Below, in pieces: positions 6,591-38,400 of a stretch of DNA of 64,000 bases. Origin of the DNA: Pristiophorus japonicus. Taxonomy: Eukaryota. The notes beneath the pieces are model-generated. The model saw nothing but the letters and a program-made list of their open reading frames with translations, did no database searches and was not told the DNA's origin. The position numbers and the translations under genes were made by a program. Where the stretch lies: the NCBI RefSeq assembly GCF_044704955.1, contig NC_091999.1:13950001-14014000 (forward strand). Direction: 5' to 3'. Each line of letters begins with the position of its first letter. The first letter of the stretch is position 1.

Positions 6591-6735
6591 AGTCATTCTA
6601 AATATTACCCTAGACCATGTCACTGTTTATAATTACACATGACCCAGTCTCGGTTTATATTACATTCGACCCTGCCTCTGTTTATATTATACTAGACCCT
6701 GTCCCTGTTTATACTACACTTGACAGTATCTCTGT
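6590..6735. repeat. Short degenerate tandem repeat (tgtttatattacactagaccctgtc-like)
   Basis: About 5 imperfect units visible by eye. Confidence 0.55.
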
Positions 6736-6737
6736 TT

Positions 6738-8364: not shown

Positions 8365-8802
8365 TTAATCCATTCTTGGGATGTGGGTGTCGCTAGTAGG
8401 GCCAGAATATATTTCCAATTTCCATTTGCCCCTTGGCAAGGTGATGGTGGGCCTTCTCGAACCACTGCAGTCCGTGTGGTGAAGGCCCTCCCACAATGCT
8501 GTTATGTGAGGAGTTCCAGGTTTTTCACCCAGTGACGATGTAGGAATGGCAATATATGCCCAAGTCAGGATGGTGTGAGACTTGGAGGGGAACTTGGAGG
8601 TGATGGATTTCCCATGCACCTGCCGTCCTGGTCCATCTGGGTGTGAGAGGTTGTGGGTTTGGGAGGTCCTGTCAAAGTTCTGGTCGAGTTGCAGATGTAT
8701 AAAGTCTCTCCCCTTCACCCCGCCCACCTCTCCCTCCTCCCATAGAGGCCAGAGTCTTGTGTAGGCCCAGACCGGGTGGTGGATTCCCATCCCTGAAGGA
8801 CA
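8365..8802 (-). mobile_element. Old LINE (CR1/L2-clade) 3' or SINE-like fragment; continues at 12439-12553
   Basis: KFPSKSHTILTW-type tail. The string ccctgaagGACA...GACAttagtgaccagttggg is split by the LTR insertion. Confidence 0.55.
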
Positions 8803-11800: not shown

Positions 11801-12438
11801 AGCCCAGAGTCCAAGTGCTTTTCCAGAGTGTTCTCAGGTATGTTTCGTCAGAAGTGTTTCCTCAGCCCAAAAGTTACCACAGCCCAAAAGTCACCACCAA
11901 GGCCCACAGTTGTACCTGAGTGCACAATTGATTTCTGATGACTGCTTTTGTGCAATTTTGGCAGGCTGATCAACTCTATTGTGATCCCTTTGTGAGAAAT
12001 TTTGGTGGGCTGATTGAGCATTACCATGATACAAGATTACCAAAGGTGTTGATAGGGTTTTCGAATGGTGCCGTTAGAATGTAATCAGGTTTTGATACTG
12101 TCCATTGTGTGTTTTGCTGATGCCAGGGTTTTTCTGTATAGCCGTTTTAATAACTATTAAAATATGCATGTATCTGGGTCCCAGCTAAGTGGGCTTTTGT
12201 TAGACTGCTAATGTTTCCCTGGGGCCTGCCTCCCAGGTGGGGTAGCAGCCCTATGCAGACCCAGCATACAATTTAAAATGTCCAAACTCAATCTAAAAGG
12301 CCCTAGTTTAGTCCAAAGGCATCTAATAGTGAGATATTTCTATCCACATTTCTCCTCCAAAAGTCTAACACAGTTCCAATTCAAATTCCAGACACATGTC
12401 CATTGAGTAGGGGGTCCCAGAATTTTGTGAGTCCTACA
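8803..12438. mobile_element. Solo LTR (about 1.2 kb once the internal CR1 is removed) with 4-bp target-site duplication GACA
   Basis: Starts TGTGG and ends CCTACA. GACA at 8799-8802 and 12439-12442. The flanks rejoin into one continuous repeat. Confidence 0.7.
9162..11594 (+). mobile_element. CR1 LINE, 5'-truncated, disrupted ORF2, inserted in the solo LTR
   Basis: SDHNMVEF, GVPQGSVLGP, KFADDTKL, LEYCVQFWSP; ends in (ttctatgt)n. Confidence 0.95.
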
Positions 12439-12614
12439 GACATTAGTGACCAGTTGGGTTATTACGACAATCCGGCAGCTTTCAGGGTCACTTTTTTTCT
12501 GCTGGCGGCTGCACAAATAGCCAGGTTGATTCAGCTCAATTTCACAACCTGCCTTTGTGTTTTTGCGGGTTCTCTCTCACCCACCCTTTTTCCTGTTTGA
12601 AACTCACTTTACAG

Positions 12615-13089
12615 GGTATTAAAAGGGGAGGATTTGTCGGCCAGAGGCTCAAACCAAACATCACATTAAGATCTGATGGAGTCACTCGATTCATCGGGAA
12701 TGGAATATCATCGGCGTTTGACCATGGAAGCAAAAAGCACTGTTCACAGCAGGGAGAAACTGTACACGTGCTCTGTGTGTGGACAAGGCTTCAGCCGATA
12801 ATCCAACATGGTGAGACACAAGTGCAATCATACTGGGGAGAAACTGTGTAAATATGGGGACTGTGGGAAACGTTTCAACTACCCGTCCCAGCTGGAAACA
12901 CATTGGCGAATTCACACCGGGGAAAGGCCGCTCACCTGCTCCGAGTGTGGGGAGGGAATCACTCAGTCATCCAACCTGCTGACACACCAGCATGTTCACA
13001 CTGGGGAGTGGCCGTTCACCTGCTCTGAGTGTGGGAAGGGATTCAGTACGTTAGCCCACGTGTTGCGGCACCAGAGAGTTCACAAGTGA
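12615..13089 (+). pseudogene. C2H2 zinc-finger gene terminal exon (4 fingers), pseudogene
   Basis: Acceptor ctttacag ends at 12614. Reads [39 protein letters not shown]...[13 protein letters not shown]...HQRVHK. In-frame stops at 12667 and 12799. Finger 2 has lost its first Cys. Confidence 0.88.
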
Positions 13090-13479
13090 AAGCAGGTGTG
13101 GGATTCTGCTGTTACTGCTGCTATTAATCACATCCCGACTGAACCATGTTCATTCTGACAGTTGGGGTTTGTTTCCGCTGATGTTAATAACTCCTGTAAC
13201 TAGACTGGAGTTTAATATTTGGGATATTGACAAATAAATTCGTGTTGCCTTCAACACATTGCTGTAGATTTTTGTCTTTCCCACCCGTGTGTTTAGCATC
13301 TCCTGGCTGGAGCTCAGTGAGGACAATCTGGGGGAGGATCGTATGGAGGGAGGACTTCAGCCTGGACACAGTCCTTCAGGGTCACACTGAGGGGCAAACG
13401 GCACTTTGGTCTTTCTAATCTCTCTTCACTGACAGCAAAGTCACCGTGCGGGTTAACCTTGATGTGTAAGATGCGGATG

Positions 13480-15639: not shown

Positions 15640-16630
15640 AGTCACCTCTCACCTCTCATTCTTCTAACCGCTGGAGAATATCGGCCTGATCTACTCAATC
15701 TCTCATTGGACAATCCCCCCCCCCATATCCCAGCAATCAGTCTGGTGAACCTTCATTGCAGTCCCTCTGCAGCAAGTTTATCTTTCCTTAGGTAAGGAGA
15801 CCAAAACAGTACACAATACTCCAGGCGTGGTCTCACCAGGGCCCTGTATAATTGCAGTAAGATGTCTTTACTCTTATACTCAAATCCTCTTGTAATGAAG
15901 GCCAATATATCATTTGCTTTTTTAATTGCTTGCTGTACCTGCATATTAACTTTTGGCGATTTGTGTGCAAGAACACCCAGGTCCCTCTGAATACAATGTT
16001 TCCCAATCTCTCACCATTTAAAATAAATACTCTGCCTTTCTATTTTTACTGTCAGTGTCGAACTTAACATTTCTTCACATTATATTCCATTTACCATGTT
16101 CTTGCCCACTCACTGAGCCTGTATATATCCCTTTGAAACCTCTTTTCATCCTCCTCACACTTACATTCCCAACTAGCTTTGTATCCTCAGCAAACTTCAA
16201 TATATTACATTTGGTCCCCTCATCCATATTATTGATATAGATTGTGAATAGCTGGGGCCCAAGCACCGATCCTTGCAGCACCCCACCAGTTACAGCCTGC
16301 CAACCCGAAAATCACCCGTTTATTCCTACTCTCTGTTTTCTGTCTGTTAACCAATCCTTAATCCTTGTTCGTATATTGCGCCCAATCCCATGAGCCCTAA
16401 TTTTGTTTAATAATCTCTTGTGTGGCACCTCATCGAATGCCTTCTGTAAATCTAAATACACCACATCCAATGGTCCTGCTAGTTACAACCTCAAAAAACA
16501 CTAACAGATTTGTCAAGTTCAAGTTCCCTTTGCTAAATCCGTGTTGATTCTGCCCAATCCTGTTATTACTTACTACATGCTTAATAATAGATTTTTTAGC
16601 TTTTTCACAAGTACTTATGTCAGGACTACC
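15640..16630 (-). mobile_element. CR1 LINE RT fragment
   Basis: QGSVLGPQLFTIYIN, KFAEDTKL, LEYCVLFWSP. Confidence 0.88.
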
Positions 16631-18730
16631 AGTAATGCACGGGTTAGATACAATGTAAATCTCACTCAATTCTGTCCCAAACACTACCAGGGTTGGTACA
16701 GAGTAAATCTCAGTCTGCAATATCCCAAACACTCCCAGGGCCAATACAACACAGGTTAGACACAGAGTAAAGCTCAGTCTACACCATCCCACTACACATT
16801 CCCAGAGCAGGTAAAACACAGGTTAGACACAGAGTGCATCTCCTTCTACCCTGACCCAGCCATTCCATTGCAGATACAGCATTTGTTAGATATAAAGTAA
16901 ATCTCCCTCTGCACTGTCCAGATAAACATTCCAAGGGCAGGTACAGCATAATTTAGATACAGTGTAATTCTCTCTCTCATCTCTCACTACAATTGTACAG
17001 TGCCTTGATGAGACCACACCTGGAGTACTTTGCACAGTTTTCAGCTCCTTATCTAAGGAAGGATGTACTTGCCTTGCTTAGATACAGAGTAAAGCTCCCT
17101 AAACACTATCCCACCAGATATTCCAAGGGCAGGTACAACACAGGTTAGATATGGAGTAGATCTCCCCCTACCCTTTCCCAAACATTCCAGGGCAACTACA
17201 GCACCTGAAAGATACAGAATAAAGCTCCCTCTACACTGCAGCATCAAACATTCCCAGGGCAAGTACAGCATGGGATAGATACAGAATAAAGCTCCCTCTA
17301 CACTGTCCCATCAAATACTCCCAGGGTAGGTACAGCATGGGTTAGATACAGAATAAAGCTTCCTCTACACTGTCCCATCAAACACTCCCAGGGCAAGTAC
17401 AGCATGGGATAGATACAGAATAAAGCTCCATCTACACTGTCCCATCAAATACTCCCAGGGCAGGTCCAGCATGGATTAGATGCAGAATACAGCTCCATCT
17501 ACACTGTCCCATCAAATACTCCCAGGGCAGGTCCAGCATGGATTAGATGCAGAATACAGCTCCATCTGCACTGTCCCATCAAACACTCCCAGGGCAGGTA
17601 CAGCACAGATTAGGTACAGCATAAAGCTGTCTCGACACTGTCCCATCAAACACTCCCAGGCAGCTACAGCACGGGTTTGATACAAAGTAAAGCTCCATCT
17701 ACAATGTCCCATCAAACAATCCCAGGGCAGGTAAAGCTCACTCTACACTGTCCAATCAAACACGCCCAGAGCAGGTACTGCATTGGTTGGATACTAAGTA
17801 AAGCTCCCTCTATACTTTCCAAATAAACACTCAGAGGGCAGGTACAGTACAATTTAGATACTTCGCTCTACAATTGTAGAGGGTCTTGGTGAGACCAAGT
17901 GCACAGTTTTGGTCTCCTAATCTAAGGAAGAATATACTCACCTTGCTTAGATACAGAGTAAAGCTCCCTCGACACTGTCCCACCAGACATTCCAAGGGCA
18001 GGTACAACAAAGATTAAATATGGAGTATATCTCCCGCTACACTGTCCCAAGCATTCCAGAGTAGATACTGCATTGGTGAGATACAGAGTAAAGCTCCCTC
18101 TGCACTGTCCCATCAAACACTGCCTGGGCCGGTAAAGCACGGGGGTTTAAACACAGAGTAAATCTCTCTCTACACAGTCCCAGGGCAGGTACAGTACGGG
18201 TTATATACAGAGTAAAGCTCCTTCTGCACTGTCCTAAAGAATCCCAGGGCAGGTACAGCAAGGGTTCGTCACAATTTAAAGCTCCCTGAAGGCTGACCCA
18301 TTAAACACTCCCAGGGCAGGACAGCACAGGTTAAATACACAGTAAGGATCCTCTGCACTGTCCCACCAGACATTCCCAGCGCATGCACAGCACAGGTTAG
18401 ATGAAGAGTAAAGCCCCCTCAGCATTGTCCCATCAAACACTGCCAGGGCCAGTACAGCACAGGATAGACACGGTGTATATTTTCCCGAAACACTCCACGG
18501 CAGGAACAGAATGGTATAAATAGAGAGTAATTTCTCCGTCTTTACTTTCCCAACAATCCCTGGGAAGGTACAGGACCGGTTATCTAAAGATTTAATCTCT
18601 CTCCAACCTGTCCCAAACGCTCCCAGGTTAGGTACTGCATTGGTTAGATACAGAGTTAATCTCCCTGTACGCTGTCCCATCAAACACTGCAGAACAGGTA
18701 CAGAGTAAAGTTCCCCCTAGACTGTCCAGT
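16630..18730 (+). repeat. Degenerate 67-bp tandem repeat array with two small CR1 scraps inside
   Basis: Unit cccatcaaacactcccagggcaggtacagcacgggttagatacagagtaaagctccctctacactgt. Most units contain AGCT. Confidence 0.9.
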
Positions 18731-18734
18731 CAAA

Positions 18735-19316
18735 TGTTATTGAATGGGGAGCAGGCTCGAGGGGGTGGAGGAGTCCGAGTGGCCCACTCCTGCTCCTATT
18801 TCTCATGGTCTTCTGTACCCAGCATGCCCCGTGATGGAGAATGTGCCGCACCCAGACTGCAGGAGCTCAGTACGCAGGCGCGGGCCCTGGCTGTGTTTGG
18901 AGCATGCGCGGTGCGTGTAATGGCGGAGAAGACATGTTTTGGACAGGCTCCTCAGAAGTGCCCTTTTCAGTGGGACGGAGCGGAATAATGTACCAGCGGG
19001 GAGCCGGGAAGGCTTCATAAACAACCGGTGCCCGCCGCAAGCCCGGAATAATAACCGGAATATCGGCGGTTGCAGCTTCGGGGCTTTCTCCAGTCACAGG
19101 CCCAGGCTAACGGCGGCCATCTTGGTACAGGAAGGCAGGTTCAGCGCTCCGCCATTTTCCGCGGCCATCTTCGTACAGGAATAAAGTGAATGATGTCGGT
19201 GTCTGGAACTGAGCCGAGCCAGAGTCAGTACCTTCAGGGGAGGGGAACCAGTGAGTAGAACTGAACCCAGCCAGAGTCAGCACCTTCAGGGGAGGGGAAC
19301 CAGTGAGTGTAGAACT
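18735..19316 (+). promoter_or_regulatory. CpG-rich promoter / first-exon-like module, copy 2 (includes preceding CR1 tail and two 54-bp units)
   Basis: Paralogous to 773-1267. YY1-type GCCATCTT twice and CCGCCATTTT at 19149-19158; GCATGCGC at 18902-18909; ATGATG at 19190; GTGAGT donors at 19251 and 19303. Confidence 0.55.
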
Positions 19317-19342
19317 GATGTTATATCTGTAACTAACTGTTA

Positions 19343-21373
19343 CACACCCACCCCCCACACACACAACCTAACCGAGCCCCCCCCACATACACAACCTAAC
19401 CGAGACCCCCCCCCCACACACACACAACCTAACCGAGATCCCCCCCCATACACAACCTAACCGAGACCCCCCCACACACACACAACCTAACCGAGACCCC
19501 CCCCACACACACACAACCTAACCGAGACGCCCCCCACACACACAACCTAACCGAGCCCCCCCCACACACGTGACCCCCGCTCCACATACACAACCTAACC
19601 GAGACCCCGCCCCCACACACACAACCTAACCGAGATTCCCCCCATACACAACCTAACCGAGACCCCCCCACACACACACAACCTAACCGAGACCCCCCCA
19701 CACACACAACCTAACCGAGACCCCCCCACATACACAACCTAACCGAGACCCCCCCCCACACACACAACCTAACCGAGATTCCCCCCCATACACAACCTAA
19801 CCGAGACCCCCCCACACACACACAACCTAACCATGACCCCCGCCCCACACACACAACCTAACCGAGAACCCCCCACACACATAACCTAACCGAGACCCCC
19901 CGACACACACAACCTAACCGTGACCCCCCCCACACACACAACCGAACCGTAACCATCCCCCCCCACTCAACCGAACCGAGACCCCCCCACACACAACCTA
20001 ACCGAGACCCCACCCACACAACCTAACTGAGACCCCTCCCCCACACAACTTAACTGTGACCCTCCCCCACACAACCTAACCGAGACCCCCCCCACACACA
20101 CAACCGAACCGAGCCCCCCCCACACACACAACCTAACCGAGACCCCCACACCACACACAACCTAACTGTGACCCTTCCCCATACAACCTAACCGAGACCT
20201 CCCCCACAAACAACCAAACCGTGACCCCCCCACACAAACGTAACCGAGACCCCCACACAAACAAACCAACCGTGACCCCCTCACAAACAACCCAACCGTG
20301 ACCCCCCCACACACAACCTAACTGAGACCCCCCCAAAAACAACCTGAGAGCAGCCCCACAAACAACCTATCCATGACCCCCCCGCACACAAGCTAACCGA
20401 GACTCCCCCCATACACACACAACCTAACCGAGAACCCCCACACACAACCTAACCGAGACCCGCCCCCAAACACAACCTAACCGTGACCCCCCCCACATAC
20501 AACCTAACTGTGACCCCCCCCACACACAACCTAACCGTGACCCCCCCCACACACAACCTAACCGAGACCCCCCACACACACACAACGTAACCATGACCCC
20601 CCCCCACACACACAACCTAACCGAGACCCCCCACACACATACAACCTAACCGAGACCCCCCACACACATACAACCTAACCGAGACCCCCCACACACATAC
20701 AACCTAACCGAGACCCCCCACACACACACAACGTAACCATGACCCCCCCCCACACACACAACCTAACCGAGACCCCCCACACACATACAACCTAACCGTG
20801 ACCCCCCCCACACACACAACCTAACCGTGACCCCCCCAGACACACAACCTAACCGTGACCCCCCCCCACACACACAACCTAACCGTGACCCCCCCAGACA
20901 CACAACCTAACCATGACCCCCCCCCACACACACAACCTAACCGTGACCCCCCACACACAACCTAACCGTGACCCCCCCTACGCACACACAACCTAACCGA
21001 GACCCCCCCACACACAACATAACCGAGACCCCCCACACACACAACCTAACCAAGACCCCCCACACACAACCTAACCGTGACCCCCCACACACACAACCTA
21101 ACCGTGACCCCCCACACACAACCTAACCGTGACCCCCCTACGCACACACAACCTAACCGAGACCCCCCCCACACACAACATAACCGAGACCCCCCCACAC
21201 ACAATCTAACCGAGACCCCCCCACACTCAATCTAACCGAGACCCCCCCCCACACAACCTAACCGAGACCCCCACCCCTCCCCCCCACACACACAACCTAA
21301 CTGAGACCCCCCCCACACGCACACAACCTACATGAGACCCCCCCCCACACGCACACAACCGAACCGAGACCCC
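19343..21373. repeat. About 2-kb C-rich minisatellite (ACACAACCTAACCGAGACCCCCCC)n
   Basis: Dozens of units of roughly 25-32 bp with an invariant AACCTAACCG core and variable C and CA runs. Extreme C/G strand skew. Confidence 0.95.
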
Positions 21374-21470
21374 GCAGCAAGATGCAGTTGCACAAAAACA
21401 AAAATATATTTTTTTCAAAAAAATAAAATCGTCGATCCCAGCAAAACAAACGGCCCCAACAAACGGAGGT

Positions 21471-21676
21471 CATCATCACAAAAGTTCCTCGGAATCGAGG
21501 AAGACTTGCTTCCACTCTAAAAGTGAGTTCTCAGGTGACTGAGCTGTCCAATATGAGAACCACAGTCTCTGTCACAGGTGGGACAGGCAGTGGTTGAGGG
21601 AAAGGGTGGGTGGGACTGGTTTACCGCACGCTCCTCCCGCTGCCTGCGCTTGTTTTCTGCATGCTCTCGGCGATGA
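21471..21676 (-). mobile_element. RTE-clade LINE 3' end
   Basis: Minus strand reads ...KRRQREERAVNQSHPPFPSTTACPTCDRDCGSHIGQLSHLRTHF*, a C-terminal CCHH motif, followed by a (gat)n-like tail. Confidence 0.7.
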
Positions 21677-22019
21677 AACTGCAATTAAATAAAGGACCAG
21701 ATGTGCTGATTGAGAAATAAATGCTGGCCAAAATAACAGGAACAGGTCTCTGCTCTTCGATTGTATGATCCCATAAAGGATTCTTTATTGAGGAGATGTA
21801 TAAATGTTCTTGTTTTGTAATGTAATAGAGTTCGGGGATAGAGAGGTGTATTCCTGACCAGGGCATCGACAGGAACTGACGGAAGCTCAAATGCCCATGT
21901 AGTCATTCATGGGGAAATGGTGGAATTAGTTTATTCTGCTGTCAAATTTCGAGTTGTTTATTTCTTTTATAAGCACGGATTACAGAGTCTAACTTGTTCA
22001 CTGGGCCATTCTTTCCCAG

Positions 22020-22294
22020 TAACACCGTCTCACCCCACCCTCTACGCCCTGCTCTCCTCCTGTGAACAACCCAGTACGGCTGTTTGGCGATGGACTACTC
22101 CCCCGACATCACCAGCCTTTTCTGGAAGAAAGATAAAGAACCGATCATCACTGGATTGAAGACCTACCCGCCAGTGCTCAACAAGAAGGGAACCTACACC
22201 CTGAGCAGCCAGTTAACCGAGTCAGAGGTGGGGAGCAGCACAATCTACTGCGAGGTTCGACGTTGTGGGTCGTTGTGGAACATCAGAATGCCAG
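22020..22294 (+). pseudogene. ighm: IgM heavy chain CH1 exon (frameshifted)
   Basis: Acceptor tttcccag, donor gttagt. [19 protein letters not shown] / [46 protein letters not shown]...IYCEVRR matches horn-shark Cmu1 as I recall it. About 6 codons are missing with a net frameshift at 22077/22078. Confidence 0.93.
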
Positions 22295-22577
22295 GTTAGT
22301 GGTGTGGGATACAGGGCAAACTGAAAAGGTGAGAAATTATGTTCAACTTGTATGGAAACTTAGTTAGACCACACTTAGAATATTATGCACGGTTCTGGTC
22401 TCCATATCATACTTTGAATATTATGCACGGTTCTGGTCTGCATGTTACACTGTGGTCTCTGTAAATGCCAGGTTAGTGTTAGAATTACAGCAAAGAACCT
22501 GTTAAAACATAAGGACACTTTGCATTGTTTAATCATTTATTTTGCAAGCAATGGCAAGAATATGTCTTCTCTTGAAG

Positions 22578-22895
22578 ATCCTGAATGGGACATCGTTCCT
22601 CCAACTGTTCTCCTCACGCTGTGTTCCACTGAACAAATCACCAACAGCAGATATGCAAGCGCCGTGTGTTCAATCATCGATTTCCGGCCAAAGTCACTGA
22701 CCGTGAATTGGCTGAAGAGTGGACAACTCCTGGATTCGGGATTCATCACCTCTCCCGTCTTTGAGGTGAACGGGAACTTCTCGGCGTCCAGTCGGCTGAT
22801 AGTCCCCGCCGAGGAATGGTTCACCGGCTCAGTCTACACCTGCCAGGTCACTCATGTAGGGGTCATGCAAAGCCATAACTTCAGCAGATCTCAGA
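22578..22895 (+). pseudogene. ighm: IgM heavy chain CH2 exon (open frame)
   Basis: Acceptor cttgaag, donor gtaaga. C1-set domain IVPPTVLL...[18 protein letters not shown]...[15 protein letters not shown]. Confidence 0.93.
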
Positions 22896-22919
22896 GTAAG
22901 AGGCACAATCCCGGGAGGT

Positions 22920-23215
22920 TCATAAAAATATAGAAACATAGAAAATAGGTGCAGGAGTGGGCCATTCGTCCCTTCGAACCTGCACCACCATTCAATAAGA
23001 TCATGGCTGATCATTCACCTCAGTACCCCTTTCCTGCTTTCTCTCCATACCTCTTGATCCCTTTAGCCGCAAGGACCATATCTAACTCCCTCTTGAATAT
23101 GTCCAATGAACTGGCATCAACAACAACTCTGCGGCAGGGAATTCCACAGGTCAACAACTCTCTGAATGAAGAAGTTTCTCCTCATCTCAGTCCTAAATGG
23201 CTTACCCCTTATCCA
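22920..23215 (-). mobile_element. CR1 3' tail in the CH2-CH3 intron
   Basis: aacatagaaaataggtgcaggag tail, same subfamily as the element at 1268. Confidence 0.88.
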
Positions 23216-23320
23216 GACCATTCTGAGCGCTGATCTCAGTCAGGACTTTTATTGGAATTAGTAAAAAGCACAGAACTATTCCTAATTTCCAATCATGCAG
23301 TTTGTGTATTCTTGCGATAC

Positions 23321-23745
23321 AAACTTGCCTTTATACAGCGCTTTCAGCGACCACAGACTGAATCAAAGCGCTTTCCAGCCAATTAATTAAGTTGTGAAAT
23401 GTGGTCACAGTTGTAATGTACAAAGTACAGCAGTCATTTAGTGCACATAAGCTCTCACAAACAGCAGTGTGATAATGACCAGATTTTCTTTGTTTCGTGA
23501 TGTTTTTTGAGGGATTAATATTCCCAGGCCACCAGGGAGAACTCCTCTGCTTTTCATTGAAATAATTCCAGGGGATCTTTTACCTCCACCTGAGAGACCA
23601 GACGGATCCTCGGTTTAACACGTGATCTGACAGACGGTACCTCCGATAGTGCACCACACCCCCAGTACTGCACTGGGAGACTCAGCTTACATTTTGTGAT
23701 CAAGTATCTGGAGTGGGAATTCAACCCACGATCTTCTGGTTCAGG
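23321..23745 (-). mobile_element. DeuSINE / SacSINE1-like SINE
   Basis: Minus strand shows a tRNA-like B-box head (gggttgaattcccactccag), a Deu-domain-like core (cagtactg...ggaggtaccgtc...ttaaaccgagg...caggtgga...taaaagatccc) and the tail aaagcgctgtataaaggcaagt. Confidence 0.75.
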
Positions 23746-23924
23746 ATTCTTCATTGTTCAGGATTTATTAACCTCGCCAAAGAAGCTTTCCCCTGCTCTG
23801 ATGTCAGGCAGTGAGTGAAGTGTCCTTAGTCTCAGGTTTATCCTGAGTTGGCTAATCATATACAGAGCGGCAGTAGGAGTCTGGAACCCATTCCTGCTAA
23901 CTGTCCAGGAACCCTGCTAGAATG

Positions 23925-24450
23925 GGCATCTACCCTATTCAGAGCACTGAGCCCAATTCTGGGCTCCGCACCTCAGGAAGGATATACGTGGAGGCGCAAA
24001 ACTGCAGCTTTACCCGAATTAAACCGGGGCTAATAATGTAAAATGATCAGGAGACGAGTATAGAATGTTAAGAGGGGATCCAATTGACATGTTTAAGTTG
24101 AGAAATGACATTGATCGAGCAGATATAGAAAAAATGTATTTGTTTTGTTGGGAGAGTCCAGAACAAGTAGCATAACTTTAAAATTAGAGTTAGGCCGTGC
24201 AGAGGTGATATCAGGAAGGATTTCTTCACAGGAAGAATAATGCAAGTCGGGATTTCCCTCCCCAAAAGCTGCTGACCCTGGGTTTCATTTGAAAATTTAA
24301 AAGCAGAGAATGAGAGATTTTTGTTAGGCAAGATTATCAAGGGTTACATAACCAAGGCGGGAAGATGGTGTTGAGTGTTGATCAGCCATGATCTAACTGG
24401 ATGGTGGGACAGGATGGATGGGCTGAATGGCCTCCTCCTGTTCCTATGTT
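23925..24450 (+). mobile_element. Degenerate CR1 3' fragment
   Basis: caattctgggctccgcacctcaggaaggatata...cagccatgatctaactg...gggctgaatggcctcctcctgttcctatgtt. Confidence 0.75.
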
Positions 24451-25159
24451 GCTATTAATGCCCTGGGATCATATTTCATTCCGACTCTCTCTCACTAGAC
24501 ATGATAAATGTTCAGTAATTACAGAAATTAACAAACTACCTCACATCATTACAAATGATGCCCAACCACAAAAGACTCCTTGGAACTCCATTCTCCCGAC
24601 CTTGCACTTCTCCTCTGACGGGAGTTGTGACTGGTTCCTGCACATTTTCACCCCAACAAATGTCGCAGCAAGAGACCAGAAACTTAACTTTGTTTCCTGC
24701 AGCCCCAAAATTCCTGAAATGCATTTGACACTGGTTTTGAACCAGTATAATGCTGGTGTAGACCTCTTGAACTTCGGGCTATTCGGGCTTCAGCTATTAT
24801 AACCAGCAGAGATGCATTTGGGTGAAAGGAACTATAGACGGGCGTAAAGGAGCAAGGGATTTCAGGAAGAGCACTATTCAGTGCCTAACACAATTGCGCC
24901 CCAATGTATTCCCATTTTACACCAGGTCTTTGCTTCAGAGCCCATTACAGGTGGCTCTGGCTGCAAATACACAGGAAATGTTACAGATCTCCTGGAATTG
25001 TTTCCAATTCATTGCCCTTCCAATAACGACGGTGTTTAAGCAACAGCGGGAGGTAGATATCTCAAAAGTGATTTGTTCCCCTTGAAAGAGTTAAAGCTAA
25101 ATATTGGTGTCGTGATTCTGAAGATGTAGCTTTTCCTGACGTTCATTCCTGTTTCGCAG

Positions 25160-25468
25160 TGGATGTCCCATGCAGCGATTCAAAAATCACTCTTCGCCCA
25201 CCGTCACTGGAACAGGTCCTACTGGAGGCGACGGTGACCTTAACCTGCATCGTGTCTGATGCTCCTTATGGGCTCACCGTATCCTGGACCTGAGAAAAGG
25301 AGGCTTTGAAATCAGAGATTGCCGTTCAACCGGGAGAGGATCCCAACAGCGTGATCAGCAACTTAAACATCTCGACACAAGACTGGCTGAGTGGGGATAA
25401 GTTCTACTGCATGGTGAGCCATCAGGATATGCCGACTCCTCTCAGAGATTCCATCCACAAGGAAAAGG
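25160..25468 (+). pseudogene. ighm: IgM heavy chain CH3 exon (in-frame stop)
   Basis: Acceptor tttcgcag, donor gtgagc. [59 protein letters not shown]...[22 protein letters not shown], with TGA at 25291-25293. Confidence 0.93.
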
Positions 25469-26334
25469 GTGAGCAGGGAGATTGTTGCAATAAGTGAGAC
25501 ACTGCGATTATTTCCGGTGCATGTGCAAGGGCCAATTCATCATATAAAGTGTTTAATGGGCTACTCTGATCATTCAGTTTGGTAATTCCACGAACTCAGC
25601 ACTCTGGGACCTGACATTATGCATTTTAGGGGAAAATGGATAAGTCCATGAGCAAGATAGAAATAGCAGAGTATGTGAGCTCAGAGGAGGCGTGTGTGCA
25701 GCATAAACACCGGCATAGTTGGCTAAATCTCCTCGTTCTGTGCAGTAAATTCTATGTCATTTTCCAGTCCAACCCTTCAAGATTTCAGAGAGAAAGATTA
25801 CGTTCCCTCTGCTAAGGGATGGAAAACCAGAGAGGCCCCAGAGGGGAAAAGCAAAAGCGTTAAAATTGAATGCAGAGTCCATTTCTCTCACATCTAACCA
25901 CCTGAAATTGGCTGAATTTGAATGGGGAAGTCTCACAGGCCACCCGGGAGAACGGGAGGATTCGAAGCCGAGTGAGGAGGTCTCGGATCGCGGGGGGTGG
26001 GTTAGGTAGGGACCCTGGATCCAGGGGCAATTGCCACCTGGGTGAAGCAGTCCCCGCCTCGCTGTAACTGCTGGTATTTACACAGTGTGTCAAACCGGAC
26101 CAGCGACAGTTAAACACCAAATGGAGGTTAAAATAGAGGATTCCAGCCTCATTTAATTATATTACTCAAATATAATGTTACAACCGGGAGTGGGCGAGTT
26201 GAGGTCGGGATTCCGATTTTTAACAATTTAACCACCCTCTCGTCCACAACACACCCGCTGTATTCGATTGATATTCCCCCCCATTGTCTCTGGAACTGTC
26301 CAGTTCATTGGCCTTTATTGTAACTGTTCTACAG

Positions 26335-26726
26335 CGAAAGATCCACGGGAACTGGCCGTGTCTGTCCTCCTGCCTTCGGCAGAAGAAGTCTCCGCTCAGA
26401 GGTTGGTCAGCCTCACCTGCTTAGTGACAGGTTTCTCCCCCCGAGAGATCTTCGTCAAATGGACCGTCAATGACAAGCCGGTGGATTCCGGCAACTACAA
26501 GAACACCGAGGTGATGGCGGAGAACGGCAGCAGATCCTTCTTCATGTACAGCCTGCTATCCATTGCAGCCGAGGAGTGGGCCAGCGGCGCTTCTTATTCC
26601 TGTGTGGTGGGACATGAAGTGATTCCCTTGAAGATCATCAACAGAACCATCAATAAATCCAGTGGTAAACCCAGTTTTGTGAACATTTCCCTTGTTCTGA
26701 TGGACACCGTCAATTCTTGTCAATGA
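26335..26726 (+). pseudogene. ighm: IgM heavy chain CH4 plus secretory tailpiece exon (open frame)
   Basis: Acceptor ttctacag. [17 protein letters not shown]...[16 protein letters not shown]...NKSS then tailpiece [20 protein letters not shown] with an NIS sequon and penultimate Cys. Internal donor G|GTAAAC at 26664/26665 for the membrane form. Confidence 0.95.
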
Positions 26727-26754
26727 GAATCTCTCGATTGCATTTCAGTTCTTA

Positions 26755-26770
26755 AATAAAAACCAATAAA
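26755..26770 (+). terminator. Polyadenylation signals of secretory mu
   Basis: AATAAA at 26755-26760 and 26765-26770, just after the stop codon. Confidence 0.7.
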
Positions 26771-27519
26771 GTGCTTTTCTCCCGAACGTGAGTTAAACAC
26801 ACAGCCGCTCAATTAATTATATTTCCTATTTTTGCCAATGTGAGGGCTGTTTATCTGAAGTAGGGTGTTTGCGAGTCTCGGGTCCAAGGCTTATGCAGCC
26901 AGCGCTCCCAGCTCAGATACAGCATGGGTTAGAGACTGGGTGAATGAAGTTTTCTCATTACAGGATTCCTGAAAGTAACTTCAGCAGAGAGAGAGTAAAG
27001 GGTAATTTTAACTCACTGTACCTCTCACACCCACCAGCGAGAGGGGAACGGGAAATGTGTAATTCACGTAACCCCCACTGCCCCTCCCGCAGGGAGATGG
27101 GAAGTGAACCACGCTCTTTTAAATGGACTAAGTTGCCATCAGTACAATGTCACATTCTAACCCATGGTCTAAAGATTTTAAACTTGCCATATGAATATTA
27201 TATTCTGAAATAACTATTTATTCCGCGTAATATTTTTAAATAGTGTTGGGGGTGCAACAGTCCCTGTTAATTGTAAACTAACATGCTGAATTCAATGGGC
27301 CATATCTAAACTGGTGATTGTATCCTCTGTGGGTTTCTCACAGTTGTGTCCCTGATGTTTCTGACGCCCATCGGTTGAATTGTTGCAATCCTTCAGCTGA
27401 CGTCACATTGCGTCTCACACAGAACACATTTACACAGAGCAGGGAGAATACATGTGAAAGTGAGTTTATCTGTGTTCATATATAAGTGTGTTGAAGATTT
27501 TGTGTAAGTGTGTGTGTTT

Positions 27520-28750
27520 TTGTGTAAGTGCACAATTACACATAAACACTCATAGACTTACATATAAAGACACACTAACACTCTGGCACATAATATTAAA
27601 CATAACTAGAATATAATGGAAACCTTCATTGTCCAATCCAGTTATTGGTACTCTCTGAAACTTTGAACAATAGCAATAATACATGTCAATCCAAACACAC
27701 ACTTACACAACACATACTTACACACACTTACACACACATAGACACACACATCAATCCACACACATGTTTACAGAAAACACATTTACATACACTCACACAC
27801 ACACAAATACACACATAAATCCACACACACACTTACACAAAACACACTTACACACACATAAACATATACATCAATCTGCACAAACACACTTACACAAAAC
27901 ACATTTACACACATATCAACACATACAGCAATCCACACACACACTTACACAAAACACACTTACACACGCATAAACACTTACATCAATCCACACACACACT
28001 TACAAAACACACTTACACACACATAGACGCACACATCAATCCACACACACACAGTTACATAACACACTTACTCACACATACACACATACATCAATCCACA
28101 CACACACACACACACTTACAAAAACACACTTACACACACACACACATAATTACACACATCAATCCACACACACACTTACACAAAACAACACACACAATTT
28201 TACCTGCAAATCCATTGTTACACATAAACACACACACGCTTACACCTAAACATGAACAAACACTGAGACATAGCCATACACTTACAGTGAAGCACTCACC
28301 TGAACACACTTCCACAAGCATGAACACGCATATAAATCCAAACACACACTGACACAAAACACACACACACAAACTTACATGTAAACACACTGTTACACAA
28401 AAACTCACACACACACACACACACTTACACCTAAACATAAACAAACACTTAGACTTAACCATACACATACAGTTACAGGGAAACACACACATGAACACAC
28501 TTGCACACAAACATACACACACACATGCACACACAAACCCTTAGACATGAACATGCTTACACATAAATGTACACACACTCACCTGCACCAAATCGCACAC
28601 TCACAATTACATATAAACACAAACACTTACATATAAACACACGCACTCTTACACAAAACATAAACAAAGACTTACACACACATACACAATCTTACAAATA
28701 AACACACGTACAACCCCACAGATCAACACCCTCACAGGGAAACACAAACA
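27520..28750. repeat. CA-rich low-complexity / minisatellite tract in the CH4-TM intron
   Basis: Repeated acacacttacac and catcaatccacac motifs. Confidence 0.9.
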
Positions 28751-29416
28751 CGGACTAATCCAGAACAAGAGATATAGTGATATACAGTGATATAAACACT
28801 AAAGAGCACAAACAAAAACGAAGAACGTAGAACTAAATTGCAGTTTTTGGATGGACAATGTATCCAACGCTTGGCCTGAAAAATAATTCCTGATACCATA
28901 ACATCTCACATTTCACTATTCTGGCCTTTCACATACACTGGATCAATGTAGTTGTTGCAAACTGACACAAGTTATTTATGTTCAGAGCATTGCCGTAACA
29001 AATAAAAAAAAGGTTATAACTCACAACTGGTCTCTTACAAAGCCTCCTTGGCAGCCTCCAACTAAATAACTACCTTAACCTATCCAGCTGCAAACTTGCC
29101 TTGATGTTTCATCACATTATTCCTGAGTGATAGATCATAGCAAAGTCATTCAAAATCAATTAGCCTCTGACATGGAAGAAGAACTATCATATTTTCCAAA
29201 ACGGACTATAGCTGGATCATAAAGGAAGAGCGGCTGTGGAGTGAGGAACAGAGAGAGATTGCTGAGAGTGATTAACTTAACACAAGATATACATTGACAG
29301 TTAAATTAGAGAGCAAACTAATACCTTAAGGGAAAGAAAAGAGAACATAAAATAATAGTATGATACCCAGAATTAATAAACGATCTGAATATATTTCCTT
29401 CCCTACATCCCCGTAG

Positions 29417-29544
29417 ATTCCTCAGACCACATGTGGAGTGAAGAGTATGAGGACGAGAACAGCAACATCTGGACAACAGCTTCCACATTCATCATCCTGT
29501 TCTTCCTGAGCATTTCCTACAGCGCCGCCGTCACTCTGGTGAAG
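29417..29544 (+). pseudogene. ighm: IgM TM1 exon
   Basis: Acceptor ccccgtag, donor gtggga. [43 protein letters not shown]: acidic spacer plus the conserved antigen-receptor TM motif. Confidence 0.93.
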
Positions 29545-29684
29545 GTGGGAAGATTCAATCCGCTCACACTTCCATCTGACTGAAGCGGTTTGATAAATCT
29601 CTGGATGTTTCATTAATAAAAACCCTGAGATAAATGCCCCAGACCACTAAATCTTGGCTTCATTCTTTTATCCCACTTTTACAG

Positions 29685-29693
29685 CTCAAGTGA
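29685..29693 (+). pseudogene. ighm: IgM TM2 exon coding part (L-K-stop)
   Basis: Acceptor ttttacag then CTC AAG TGA. AATAAA at 29755 and 29785. The cytoplasmic tail is KLK instead of the usual KVK. Confidence 0.8.
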
Positions 29694-30047
29694 TGGTCTG
29701 AATTTCGGCCGCATTGGATTTTCTTCATCTGTTTATCATCTCTGTGCCCCTAAAAATAAACTATGTCCTTTTGGTGATTCTCAGAATAAAGTGCCTTTAA
29801 TTAATAGATCCGAATCGGTAGCTGAGAAATATATACCTGGGATTTCCGTCTTTCTGTTTGAAATGTGTGCGATAATTGTGGCTGTAATGTAACTGTGTCT
29901 CAGAGTTTCACTGTGCCTTGAATATTTCATGTGTAAATAAGTAACTTTTTTCATTCCTATTCACAATTGTTCCCTTCCCTTTATGCTGAGCCCCTGTTCT
30001 CTCTCTCTGGTGTCTGTCACAGTTGTGCAGATATCTGGCAGCTCCGC

Positions 30048-33542: not shown

Positions 33543-33831
33543 AGTGTCATTTGCTCCCTGTTTCGGTGAACGTTGGGAACCCTGCCCTTCACCATATGAT
33601 CTTTCATTTGGAGCCTCCCGACCACGGAACACCCCCAAGATTTCTGGTCACATCGGAGTATCTTCTGATTTTTTCCTTCTAATGCCGCGCTGCTCTTCCT
33701 CTAAACTCATGGGCTCCAGTCCTGAGGTCTTCTGTAGTAGAATAGCACTTCAGGTTGGCGGGAGGGAAGATTAATCGGCGCTGCTGAAGGGGCTTGGAGT
33801 GAGTTTGGGAATGGATGCAGTTGGTGACTAA

Positions 33832-35428
33832 TGTAATATATCTCCTGTTGACATATGTTAAAAGTTAGAATTAAGAAGCTTATTTTACATGTGTGTAATT
33901 AATGAATAATCTTTATGTTTGTAACTTCCTGTATATGCATTGATTGCCTGTAAAACTAGTGTATAAATGATAGAATATGGCCGAGTAACATAAAATTGTG
34001 TTTAAAATGGCCAAAGGCTGAGAAGCAAAGCATCATGCTAAATTGAGTCATTATTATGTTATCCATTTTTGTAACTGCTGATGAAGCTTCATTTAGAAAT
34101 AGAAAGGTCAAGGCCAAAATTATTAATCAATAAGATAAAGGTATGCAGCACCTATCAGTTCTTATCATAATTTTGTAAAGCCAAGCTCAGTAATGAATTC
34201 TGTGTGACATGTTCTGTATAATTGTTCTCAGAGAAGTGATTCCTGCCACAGAGAGGGAGGGGAGATAGAGATAACATAGTAGGCCAAAGGCAGTAGAAAA
34301 TATGATCTGTTGTTAGTCATCAACAGCTGTAGATTTTCACAGCATTTGAATGGGAAAAAATGGTATAAAGTAACAGCTCTTCTACTCAGAAGGCAGTGCG
34401 AATCAAGAGAATAGGAGATAAGGAGTCGGCACCACGGTCATCTCAAGAGGACACTATCGAGAATTAGGCTGTGACTATAATTTGTTAAGTATTACTTTTT
34501 GTAACAGAACCTAATTTTCTTGATAAAACTCTGTTTTTTACTCAATAAACTTCTATTAAAAGCATTTGTTATTACATGAACAAGGGTCTCCTAGTTTGAA
34601 TTAAATATAAACCCTAAGAATAGTTGAATTGCTATAGTTAGCAAAGCGGCAAAATGCTGGCGACCACGAAGAGACAAAACAAAGAGATATTGTACAAAAT
34701 ACAATATACTCATTAAACAAGTTAATTGGGGACTCTTCTAATTTTTTCTCTCCATTTGAAAACAGGTTGTTGTGTGTCACCAGCAGATGCAAGGCAGATC
34801 GTTTGATCACCGATCAACCCTTGTGTCGGGTTGATTTACGTCAACTGATAGTGACTATTATCTTTGTTGAGGAAGCTTACTTAAAAATAACTAACTTTCA
34901 GATGCCGGAGGTGTGTCTCTTGGAAGAGTATCAGAAAAAGTTAGAAAAAGATGTGACGAAACGCAAGTGCAGACACTGTTGGTAGACTGCCGAGGGAATA
35001 ATCCGAATGTATCCCTTAAGGATGCGGTCACTTTTATTGATGAACAGATTAAAGTAAGAAATGGAAGCTGGGTAAGGCGACGAGTCTAGTCACCTATACA
35101 GCTTCGTACTTCGCAGGACGTGAATCAAAGGTCAAGAAAGAATTAGAGTATAAAATATCAGAACTGGAAAAACAAAATTCGGCAAAGAATGAAGAATTGC
35201 AGAAAATAGATTCAGACATTAAATAGAAAATTGTGAATTTGCAGAGTCTATTTGCCTCAGCTACTGGAGTAATGCAACAGCAGAGTATCAATGCATTCAC
35301 GTATGGACTGCAATGTAAACAATTAGGAAATCTTGAGATTTAAAAAGATCGAAGCAGAGAGAATAACCGTCTCACCAAACAATTAAAAGTCTCATGGGGA
35401 GCAATGAGGGAGGATTTGCATCGACTCC
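33832..35428 (+). mobile_element. ERV-like element A: 5' LTR (about 33832-34651), PBS tRNA-Arg(TCG), degraded gag-like start
   Basis: TGTAA start, TATAAA near 34364, AATAAA near 34544. PBS TGGCGACCACGAAGAGAC at 34658-34675, one mismatch to the complement of the tRNA-Arg(TCG) 3' end as I recall it. Confidence 0.65.
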
Positions 35429-38400
35429 TGTAAGGGATAAATTGTAAGGTTGCAAATAGCGGCTCAGAATTATGATGAAGGTAGTGAACTTATAATTGCC
35501 TATGTAGGTAACACTGGCTTATGCAGGAACAGCACAAATGTATAACGCATTGAACTGAATCCGTAACCTCTGTAATACTTAAACAGCCGGTCAGCAGTTT
35601 TTTGTAAGTCCCTGAGGAAGAGATAAATAAGCAAGCACAACTACTTTAGATTAGTCATCAGATAGGCTGGGGTAGAGGGAAAAATGGAACAAAACAATGA
35701 TGAGATATGAACAGTTGCATTTACCACTCAGAGTCCGTCGGATAAGAGTCGACAAATCAATGTAACTTCGCTGATAACAATCGACCTATCGATGATTTTG
35801 CAGGATGATAGCTCCTCTCCAAAACCTGTATAAGTTGTGCTTGAAAACTCTTGTATTTCGGAGGTTCCACGACTGAACCTTCCCTTGCAATTGCTCATAA
35901 TAAAAGCCGGATGAACCTGGGATCTCGTGTGTTCACTTCCGTGGTCGTTATTCAGTGGGAGAAGGGCAAGGTGTCGATTAACTGTACCAGTTAGTCCACG
36001 TCGAAGGAGAGAAGCTTCCTTTTACCCCAACAGACGGGCAGGTGTCGACTAACTATATTAGTTAGTCCACCTTGAAGAAGAGAAGCCTCCTTTTTAACCC
36101 CTACATTTGGCGTCATGAACAGGATGCAGACCCTCTGACCTGGATGATGTGACAGCTAAATGGCAGTGAGCATGTTTTGTACCACCTGCAGCTGTAGCAT
36201 TGACGGGGAAGGAGCTTATCTGTATAAATAATTAGAAGGGGTAGCTGTAGGACAAGTTATAACAGAAGGCTGAAAACCAAGGGTGGAATAGGTGTATTGC
36301 CTGAAAAAGAAGGAATACAACCTAAGGAGGAGTGGACCCCAGCGATCGTTAGAGGAAATATAAGGTGTATGTCCTGAAGCATGACATGGTAATAACACAG
36401 TGAAGCTGGTATTGATTGTGCGCAGTGCAAACAAGAAGGAATTCAAGCTAAAAAGTGGGGTGGGACCCCAGGATCCTAGGAAAACTGGCCAGTGGGATAA
36501 AATGCTAGCTGAAATAAATGGAAAATTAATAAAAGAAAAGAAAAATGTTGGAAAAACAAATTGAATTTACAAAGGACAGTTTGTTTTTATCAAAAGATAC
36601 AAATGCGAACTTGAAAGCTGCAGCTGCTAGAAAGAGAAACAAAGATGTTGAGGAAAATGGACTGGAGAAAGATCAGCAAATTACAAAACCTAATTTAAAG
36701 AAACGAGATTTAAATTGGCTGTGAAACAGATATTGGTTTAATTATAAAAACTTATGAGTTAAATCCGACAAAGCTTTGTGTTGAGAAAGAGAAACAAAGA
36801 TGTTTAACTATGGACTGGAGTAAGGTCATCAAAAAATGATTAAGTTCGGATTCAAAAGTGGGAAATGTTCTAAGCTATACGAACTCAGCACAGAAAGAAA
36901 AAACTGGGAATTACAGAATTCTTAAAAAAGATGGACCAGCACCGAGATTTAGATTTTGTGAGGAGAGAAATAAAACATAAGATTTGCTCAGTGAACGGGA
37001 CCATAAAAAAACCAAACTGCTGGAATGTATATAGATTGCGTGGAAATTGGATTTCTGCAAACAGAATAGCTGTTAAAATGTGTGGTCTCGCTTTAAATCA
37101 ATGAAAAACTCGTTGGCAAGTATTTGAATTGGATGTGTAGAGAAATTGGAGTTTAATCGAAAATGCTGCCTTTCCCGATGAGGTTTTATTTTGACAACTT
37201 TACTAATGATTTCTGCTATTTTAATGGATTCCTAATTTCTTAGCAAGTTTTGAAAGCACAAAGAATTGGGGAAAAATTTTCAGATGAATACCCGAAGTCA
37301 AGCAATGACGTCAGACCTTCTTACAAACCTGTAAAGGAGTTAACCCTTTCCATTGACAGCTGTTTTATACTGGACATTATTAATTTGGATTTCTTAATAA
37401 AAGAAAGAAGACTCGCCTGACAGACAGAGGAAATGGTGAGATAGTCAGAATAAAAATAAAACAAAGAAAGCCTATGTAATAATACTCGCCTGCTACAGAG
37501 GACAGATAGATACTCAAACAAAACAAACTCAAGAGTTAATAGCTAAGATAAATAAGCTGGCTGAGATAAAGACAGGACCAGATGGATAGCACCATCACCT
37601 ACGGTAATAGAGACAATGTACCCCACGGTGGTAAGTGTAGTGCACAACCCCAACCTAACAGTCATCAGACAGGGATAATGAGTGCGGAGTAGAGGGGCCC
37701 CCGGCACAAGATTATGGCTATTTATCAGTGGCACCGATATGCACTACCACCATTCGCTCCAGCGGACGTAGAGCAGCCCACATTACCATACAGGAGATAC
37801 CCCTCAGCCCACAGGAAACAAATTCTATTGAATAAGTTGTCAACCGTGAAAGCAACATAGTAGAAACATAGAAACATAGAAACATAGAAAATAGGTGCAG
37901 GAGTAGGCCATTCGGCCCTTCTAGCCTGCACCGCCATTCATGGCTGAACATGCAACTTCAGTACCCCATTCCTGCTTTCTCGCCATACCCCTTGATTCCC
38001 CTAGTAGTAAGGACATCATCTAACTCATTTTTGAATATATTTAGTGAATTGGCCTCAGCAACTTTCTGTGGTAGAGAATTCCACAGGTTCACCACTCTCT
38101 GGGTGAAGAAGTTTCTCCTCATCTCGGTCCTAAATGGCTTACCCCTTATCCTTAGACTGTGACCCCTGGCTCTGGACTTCCCCAACATTGGGAACATTCT
38201 TCCTGCATCTAACCTATCTAAACCCATCAGAATTTTAAACGTTTCTATGAGGTCCCCTCTCATTCTTCTGAACTCCAGTGAATACAAGCCCAGTTGATCC
38301 AGTCTTTCTTGATAGGTCAGTCCCGCCATCCCGGGAATCAGTCTGGTGAACGTTCGCTGCACTCCCTCAATAGCAAGAATGTCCTTCCTCAAGTTAGGAG

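What the first reader, a model, noticed from the sequence alone, without database searches (positions are those of the whole stretch)
18735..29790. V(D)J-less IgM constant cassette downstream of a duplicated CpG promoter whose first-exon donor is in phase with the CH exons
Seen: a full Cmu1-4/secretory/TM1/TM2 set with every splice site and polyA signal present. I could not find a leader, VH, D, JH (WGxGT) or proper RSS in the 22 kb upstream. Instead, 2.8 kb upstream is a paralog of the CpG/YY1/NRF1 module at 844-1267. In this copy ATG 19190 opens MMSVSGTEPSQSQYLQGRGT+A and ends at a consensus GTGAGT donor (19251) in phase 1, the phase of all four CH acceptors. Known: shark IgH genes are V-D-D-J-C mini-clusters with J a few kb from Cmu1. 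Inference: a rearrangement placed Cmu where the zinc-finger coding exon of a duplicated ZNF unit would be, which could give non-lymphoid, leaderless, V-less mu transcripts. The phase match has a 1-in-3 chance by itself.
Basis: partly seen in the sequence, partly recalled or inferred. Interest (0 to 1): 0.7.

Follow-up and report, generated by a model that had tools for sequence, protein, structure and literature searches.

The report
Dead shark antibody gene, borrowed promoter
A shark antibody (IgM) constant-region gene has lost its variable part, carries a frameshift and a stop codon, and sits behind the front end of a zinc-finger-type gene; spliced copies of it appear in one public sequencing run, likely driven by that borrowed promoter, but it likely makes no useful protein.

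Summary
The V-less layout is real, but the cassette is a pseudogene. CH1 has a 19-nt frameshift deletion and CH3 an in-frame TGA. No VH or JH lies in 264 kb around it. Two germline joins built it. V-D-J was lost at ~21676, a join shared by 4 copies forming one clade. A zinc-finger-gene 5' unit (CpG module plus two 54-bp repeats) was attached at ~19318, seen before Cmu in 2 of those 4. Changes since V loss fit neutral decay (86 N: 33 S). The phase match is coincidental: the zinc-finger acceptor is phase 2 and the donor lies in a repeat. One public run, not on record as RNA, holds GT-AG spliced contigs and contigs identical to this copy across the frameshift and the stop, so it is likely transcribed. 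The 5' exon was not seen, so promoter use is inferred. The same 5' unit recurs 37 times in an adjacent satellite array. This scan noted ZNF-linked and V-less IgM copies elsewhere in this genome, not this join. Verdict: transcribed chimeric pseudogene, modest interest.

The parts
16620..18733 (.). 67-bp satellite stretch upstream of the module (also upstream of the paralogous modules at C23:14.03 and 24.34 Mb)
18734..19205 (+). CpG-rich zinc-finger-gene 5' module, likely promoter and first exon; YY1-like and NRF1-like motifs (motif consensus recalled)
   Evidence: 78% identity to 771-1267; CpG o/e 0.93 and motif scan; 2546 first-look candidates genome-wide; 9 of 20 dispersed paralogs have a ZNF exon within 10 kb
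19190..19250 (+). short ATG frame (20 codons + 1 nt) ending at a phase-1 GTGAGT; use as an exon not shown
19206..19318 (+). two units of the 54-bp repeat, each with a GTGAGT (19251, 19303); the ZNF unit breaks off here (join 2)
19345..21373 (.). 28-bp minisatellite, about 70 copies
21374..21675 (.). segment that follows this minisatellite at many other loci, ending in an antisense LINE 3' piece (RTE-like, label recalled); holds a donor-like site at 21523
21676..22019 (+). last 344 bp of the J-Cmu intron; its 5' end is join 1, where V-D-J and about 6 kb of intron were lost
22020..22294 (+). Cmu1 pseudo-exon: 19-nt deletion after 22073 (frameshift), 6-nt deletion after 22215
22578..22895 (+). 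Cmu2, open; base before the donor GT is A where the paralogs have G; skipped in one spliced contig
25160..25468 (+). Cmu3 pseudo-exon, in-frame TGA at 25291-25293
26335..26726 (+). Cmu4 plus secretory tail, open; polyA signals 26755 and 26765
29417..29544 (+). TM1 exon, open
29685..29790 (+). TM2 exon and 3' end, polyA signals 29755 and 29785

Best explanation
This is a V(D)J-less IgM constant-region pseudogene, with a frameshift and a stop codon, that is likely transcribed from a promoter captured from a zinc-finger gene and likely yields non-coding RNA. Shown: join 1 at ~21676 fused a minisatellite-plus-LINE segment to the last 344 bp of the J-Cmu intron and removed V-D-J; its 4 descendants (this copy B, A at C23:13.88 Mb, C at 14.35 Mb, D at 66.68 Mb) are all damaged. 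Shown: in A and B a ZNF 5' unit, cut in its second 54-bp repeat, precedes the minisatellite (join 2). Shown in one run: spliced contigs CH1-CH3, CH1-CH2 and CH3-CH4, and contigs identical to copy B. Inferred: the CpG module is the promoter and splices from 19250 or 19302 to CH1; translation from ATG 19190 would stop after 66 codons in CH1, so the RNA is likely a nonsense-mediated-decay target or inert. Inferred, weaker: B is the original chimera, A its duplicate (about 47 kb), and A's 5' unit seeded the neighbouring satellite array.
For: Lesions. Only 2 of 40 scored CH1 hits carry the 19-nt deletion, A and B. Junction-spanning search: 4 of 40 scored hits span join 1; these 4 form a 100/100 clade, ((A,B),C),D. 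After the common node 86 nonsynonymous and 33 synonymous changes, omega 0.79, p=0.28 against neutral; three pairs of VJ-bearing clusters give 0.34-0.41. Run X1: joints 22294-25160, 25468-26335 and 22294-22578 at GT..AG; exon bins far deeper than non-repeat intron bins; contigs with 0 differences across the 19-nt deletion (22040-22120) and the CH3 stop (25187-25396), and one (22091-22178) that differs from A at 5 sites. No JH upstream on the contig. A review states that shark Ig promoters appear associated only with V segments (PMC5192425, passages), so a V-less copy needs a foreign promoter; the module is the most CpG-rich 300-bp stretch of the window and lies 2.8 kb upstream in the same orientation as in ZNF units. 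Order of events: B's module is sister to A plus 24 array units (95/92).
Against: The 5' exon was not seen: at 98% likeness no contig covers 22020-22039 and no loose end lies before CH1. The evidence is one run of one study, kind '?', contigs only, no strand or tissue, and it may come from the assembled animal. The 6-nt-deletion contig has only 27 and 30 letters on its sides, under the tool's 31-letter rule. A better-matching donor lies at 21523 and an AATAAA at 19180. Clear cover of exons with premature stops is not what strong nonsense-mediated decay predicts. Only 9 of 20 dispersed modules showed a ZNF exon within 10 kb, and in those 9 the usual acceptor AG is altered. The array tree's bootstrap had not settled and its outgroup filled 48% of columns. 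CH4 on the A/B branches has 3 N: 3 S, too few to exclude constraint.
Confidence: 0.62

Rival explanations
1. Same dead cassette, but the RNA starts elsewhere: in the LINE-derived piece with the donor at 21523, or by read-through from the upstream ZNF pseudogene unit (module at 863), with the 18.8-kb module a bystander.
For: The 21523 site matches the donor consensus better than 19251. The upstream ZNF unit is on the same strand. The 5' exon was not observed.
Against: Copies C and D also hold the 21523 segment but lack the module, and the listed contigs match B, not C or D (only part of the contigs were listed). The upstream unit has its own exon and an intervening polyA region, and a LINE inserted in its first 54-bp repeat.
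Confidence: 0.22
2. The transcripts are made in B cells by shark inter-cluster switching or trans-splicing, which would put a rearranged VDJ from another cluster in front of these C exons.
For: Reviews report V regions of one cluster expressed with C regions of another (PMC4279169 and PMC5192425, passages). X1 also holds a more divergent mu contig (18 differences in 167 letters), so B-cell RNA may be present.
Against: Only 344 bp of J-C intron remain as a target; the product would be out of frame and counter-selected (inference). No JH loose end was seen, but none of any kind was.
Confidence: 0.07
3. A functional V-less, leaderless mu product is made by exon skipping (exon 1 to CH4, 150 codons; or exon 1-CH2-CH4, 256 codons) or by re-initiation late in CH3.
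For: CH2, CH4, tail and TM exons are open in B and these splice forms would be in frame. V-less IgW transcripts are known in sharks (PMC5192425, passage).
Against: The joints seen include CH1 and CH3, the broken exons. Neutral change counts. No signal peptide is evident in the 20-residue start (by eye), and Ig domains need the ER for their disulfides (general knowledge). Copy A has lost CH2 by frameshift and a dead donor.
Confidence: 0.05
4. The module-to-Cmu adjacency is a misassembly through the minisatellite.
For: The link runs through a 2-kb minisatellite shared with 37 array units and other loci. A and B are 98.8% alike over 42.8 kb and could be two haplotypes. No long reads were examined.
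Against: The adjacency is assembled twice with private differences (a 1.4-kb LINE, different indels, different upstream flanks). Both ends of the minisatellite recur at other loci.
Confidence: 0.04

Closest known systems
Elasmobranch IgM heavy-chain mini-cluster (VH-D1-D2-JH-Cmu) and its pseudogene copies (PMC5192425, PMC2435157; passages read)
   Same: Four Cmu exons, secretory tail and two TM exons with the same splice phases; 88-90% DNA identity to VJ-bearing clusters of this genome over the CH2-CH4 region.
   Different: No V, D, J or V promoter; frameshift and stop; a foreign CpG module upstream.
V-less IgW (IgW-deltaV) of spiny dogfish and nurse shark; V-less secreted IgD of catfish (PMC5192425, passages)
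   Same: Constant exons transcribed without a V domain.
   Different: Those splice a leader to intact C exons (IgW by alternative splicing). Here V is deleted in the genome, there is no leader, and the C exons are broken.
Transcribed unprocessed pseudogenes and chimeric genes formed by promoter capture in segmental duplications (recalled, no paper read)
   Same: Duplicated, decaying exons placed behind another gene's 5' unit and spliced.
   Different: Donor is a shark ZNF-family 5' unit; no report for a shark IgH cluster was found in my searches.
Sterile I-mu germline transcripts of mammals (recalled); sterile IgH/IgL transcripts of sharks (PMC5192425, passage)
   Same: Non-coding 5' exon spliced to Cmu1, if the inferred junction holds.
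   Different: No switch region and no upstream VDJ to serve; the promoter is ZNF-derived, not an Ig intronic one.
IgM1gj of nurse shark, which lacks Cmu2 (PMC4279169, passage)
   Same: A CH1-to-CH3 splice is seen in X1.
   Different: IgM1gj is a functional germline-joined VDJ gene; here CH2 is present and the frame is dead.

Membership tests
Functional elasmobranch IgM cluster | VH, D and JH with RSS a few kb upstream of Cmu1 | tested here: not met
   J lies 5.9-7.2 kb upstream of CH1 in 6 of 7 measured paralogs, 11.4 kb in one
Functional elasmobranch IgM cluster | Four C1-set Cmu exons, secretory tail, TM1 and TM2 with phase-1 splice sites | tested here: met
Functional elasmobranch IgM cluster | Open reading frame through CH1-CH4 | tested here: not met
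   19-nt deletion in CH1, TGA in CH3
Unprocessed IgM pseudogene | Introns retained and disabling lesions | tested here: met
Unprocessed IgM pseudogene | Loss of purifying selection | tested here: met
   omega 0.79, p=0.28 vs neutral; 0.34-0.41 in VJ-bearing pairs; small counts
Transcribed pseudogene | Copy-specific spliced RNA | tested here: met
   one run, kind not on record, contigs only; no assembled copy other than A and B carries the deletion among 40 scored
Promoter-capture chimera | 5' unit derived from another gene family and joined in the genome | tested here: met
Promoter-capture chimera | Transcript starts at the captured promoter and splices to the downstream exons | tested here: inconclusive
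V-less IgW/IgD-type isoform | Leader spliced to intact C exons | tested here: not met
   no leader-region hit in 264 kb; broken CH1 and CH3
V-less IgW/IgD-type isoform | Protein made | not testable with these tools
   needs proteomics or ribosome profiling

The most novel reading that the evidence does not exclude
A shark Cmu cassette has been captured by a housekeeping-type zinc-finger promoter and is expressed outside B cells, where it either makes a leaderless CH4 or CH2-CH4 protein by skipping the broken exons, or acts as a constitutive germline-like transcript that opens a V-less Cmu to AID-driven inter-cluster switching; and its 5' end seeded a satellite array of about 0.85 Mb holding at least 37 more copies of the promoter unit.
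Probability: 0.07. Interest if true: 0.7.

Novelty: new variant of a known kind. Interest (0 to 1): 0.32.

Why it matters
As a dead gene it shows how shark IgM clusters decay on a chromosome crowded with zinc-finger units: V-D-J is deleted, the constant exons are duplicated, and a neighbour's promoter likely turns one copy into spliced RNA. Practical point: mu-constant reads in shark transcriptomes can come from a V-less pseudogene and need not mark antibody expression. If the promoter link and non-B-cell expression hold, it is a natural test of whether transcription alone makes a Cmu a target for shark inter-cluster switching. Specialist surprise is modest, since the coding frame is dead and V-less copies arose more than once here.

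Tried and rejected
Run search: no RNA holder listed; one run of unknown kind returned. Uncovered stretches in X1, including 22020-22039, are not taken as evidence of absence. Contig depths were not used to rank this copy against working IgM genes. Protein search with the frameshifted CH1 peptide (45 aa, lengths 24-79): no candidate. Protein search with CH4 (lengths 70-226): 5 ordinary Ig hits, none from this window. RSS scan of the window: 2 loose matches (14574, 36402), neither near Cmu or a V/J. 'Join at the minisatellite' as the V-loss point: rejected, the minisatellite and its 3' neighbour are a native pair at 9 other loci of the 12 fetched, 8 of which continue into the LINE. 'Phase inherited from the ZNF exon': rejected. 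'Copy C is the ancestral state': rejected, C lacks the native minisatellite flank that A, B and D keep. Retrocopy as the source of spliced contigs: no assembled candidate among 40 scored hits. Primary papers of Lee 2008 and Zhu 2012 were not held, so what they say on V-less pseudogenes is unseen; no supplements were read. Literature searches listed no report of a ZNF-promoter/Cmu fusion; the library lacks most subscription papers. Look-ups of earlier findings near this place and by the module sequence were empty.
Full report
Setting. The window is G000:C23:13,950,001-14,014,000 in a 5.9-Gb genome. The genes are shark-type: CH4 is 63-88% identical to its five protein hits, two of which are named from cartilaginous fish. 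A CH4 search gave 140 first-look candidates, of which 40 were scored.

Observation check. They are not a full coding set. Against 10 fetched paralogs, CH1 lacks 19 nt after 22073, which shifts the frame to a stop at 22157, and 6 nt after 22215; CH3 has TGA at 25291-25293 where paralogs read Arg. V, D and J are absent: no blastn hit and no tblastn hit below E 0.04 in 264 kb, while the same queries found VH in 8 of 10 paralogous clusters. An exact JH pattern has 49 matches genome-wide, none on C23 before 15.30 Mb (exact matches only). The upstream module is real (78% identity to 771-1267; CpG o/e 0.93), as are ATG 19190 and the phase-1 GTGAGT at 19251.

What the module is. It has 2546 first-look candidates. 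I fetched 10 kb downstream of 20 of the 39 non-self hits of the window's other module: 20 of 20 continue into a 54-bp repeat array, 9 of 20 reach a zinc-finger exon within 10 kb, 0 of 20 reach Cmu or VH. The donor is one unit of that repeat and recurs at 19303. The zinc-finger coding exon in the window begins one base before its first full codon (12615; phase 2), and a second locus has the same register. A phase-1 donor from ATG 19190 would therefore be out of frame in the native unit.

Join 1, loss of V-D-J. Homology with VJ-bearing clusters stops 344 bp before CH1, at ~21676. Upstream lies a segment that follows the same 28-bp minisatellite at other loci and there continues into an antisense LINE 3' end (RTE-like is my recall). 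A few bases of imperfect microhomology sit at the join. A search across the join found 4 of 40 scored hits spanning it: B (window), A (C23:13.88 Mb), C (14.35 Mb) and D (66.69 Mb). On 3.6 kb of the CH2-CH4 region, 13 rows, these form one clade, ((A,B),C),D, 100/100. None has V or J in the 33-35 kb or more fetched upstream. All are damaged: the CH3 stop is shared by A, B and C; the 19-nt deletion by A and B; A adds a CH2 frameshift and a dead CH2 donor; C a CH2 frameshift; D a degraded CH3 donor and a stop in the tail. Changes after the common node are 86 nonsynonymous and 33 synonymous (omega 0.79, p=0.28 against neutral), against 0.34-0.41 for three pairs of VJ-bearing clusters. D supplies 68 of the 119 changes. 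A fifth V-less copy at 56.6 Mb belongs to another lineage, so V loss is not unique.

Join 2, the promoter. In A and B the ZNF unit breaks off in its second 54-bp repeat at ~19318 and runs, after a short spacer, into the minisatellite. D has the minisatellite but no module; C has lost the minisatellite and faces an antisense ZNF remnant. A and B are 98.8% identical over 42.8 kb. If join 2 happened on the A/B branch, Cmu already carried the CH3 stop; because C lost that flank, an earlier date cannot be excluded. The same 5' unit occurs 37 more times at 95-99% identity in C23:13.04-13.84 Mb (39 of 40 scored hits with A and B). In 24 of 24 units examined it is followed by the minisatellite and then a different 26-bp satellite; between 13.79 and 13.88 Mb that satellite fills 12-40 kb per unit and no ZNF exon was found. 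In a tree of 27 rows B is sister to A plus the array (95/92, bootstrap unsettled, outgroup 48% filled), which suggests that the chimera seeded the array rather than the reverse.

Expression. The run search listed one run, X1, kind not on record. Laid on 21400-27600 it shows exon-centred cover and GT..AG joints 22294-25160 (49 letters on the short side) and 25468-26335 (72); laid on 21900-22915 at 98% it shows 22294-22578 (37) and a loose end after 22294 that is the start of CH3. Contigs with no difference from the window span the 19-nt deletion (22040-22120, shared with A) and the CH3 stop (25187-25396, one difference from A); 22091-22178 differs from A at 5 sites and from each of the other 11 copies compared at 2 or more. 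An intronic contig at 21740-21897 also matches B exactly. Only A and B carry the deletion among 40 scored CH1 hits, so an assembled retrocopy is unlikely. I read X1 as RNA and copy B as transcribed and spliced. Limits: one run, one study, possibly the assembled animal, no strand, no tissue, part of the contigs unlisted. The 5' exon was not seen.

How it most likely works. Shark Ig promoters are reported to go with V segments only (PMC5192425, passage). The nearest plausible substitute is the CpG module 2.8 kb upstream. I infer that it fires, splices from a 54-bp-repeat donor to CH1 and then mostly to CH3 and CH4. From ATG 19190 the forms containing CH1 stop after 66 codons; forms starting at CH2 or CH3 stop in CH3 (170 and 64 codons); only exon1-CH4 and exon1-CH2-CH4 would reach the tail, and neither was seen. 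The likely product is non-coding. Rivals: another start site (0.22), B-cell inter-cluster switching as described in reviews (PMC4279169, passages; 0.07), a functional V-less product (0.05), misassembly (0.04).

Comparison and novelty. It fails membership as a functional IgM cluster and as a V-less IgW/IgD-type isoform, and passes as an unprocessed, transcribed IgM pseudogene; the promoter-capture test is met in DNA and open in RNA. Papers seen: passages of PMC5192425, PMC4279169, PMC2435157 and PMC12227049; search listings only for the rest; Lee 2008 and Zhu 2012 not held. Seven searches listed no ZNF-promoter/Cmu fusion. Earlier notes of this scan describe IgM clusters duplicated with ZNF pieces and another V-less IgM in this genome (not checked by me). 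I rate it a new variant of a known kind, interest 0.32.

Noticed in passing
G000:C23:13.04-13.88 Mb (L001-L010, L070-L071, L093-L112): Satellite array of about 0.85 Mb: a 26-bp satellite punctuated by at least 37 near-identical copies, in both orientations, of the ZNF-type promoter unit plus the 28-bp minisatellite, without a ZNF exon where examined.
   Followed up: partly
window 863-13260: Zinc-finger pseudogene: module, a LINE inserted in the first 54-bp repeat (1267-3126), and a coding exon from 12615 with in-frame stops; the 3' part matches Pfam zf-C2H2.
   Followed up: partly
window 46020-46901: Rhodopsin-family GPCR sequence split over two frames (Pfam 7tm_1 in the second), duplicated with the block at C23:13.9086 Mb (99.5%).
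   Followed up: no
L021-L040 (clusters at C23:16.1, 27.8, 34.6, 36.5, 46.5, 47.7, 63.3 Mb): V and J only about 400-900 bp apart, with layouts that look partly germline-joined (V fused to D with one 22-bp RSS; or free V with 23-bp RSS and a J with upstream extra codons).
   Followed up: no
L029-L030, L068-L069 (C23:56.61-56.65 Mb): A further Cmu cassette with no V or J in 35 kb upstream, from a different lineage than the four copies studied.
   Followed up: partly
L079, L084, L086-L092: Nine compact ZNF paralogs all have the usual coding-exon acceptor AG changed to AT, so this subfamily uses another acceptor or is dead.
   Followed up: no
window 56970-63105: Four tRNA-like genes on the minus strand (Leu, Asp, Asn, Leu) in a repeated unit with AG-rich spacers.
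   Followed up: no
window 33800-37800 and 49800-53500: AT-rich stretches that look like decayed LTR-element sequence (by eye, not tested).
   Followed up: no
window 22689-22855 and 26710-26926 in run X1: Contigs of a more divergent mu gene (18 differences in 167 letters; 16 in 216), so other IgM loci are present in the same run.
   Followed up: no
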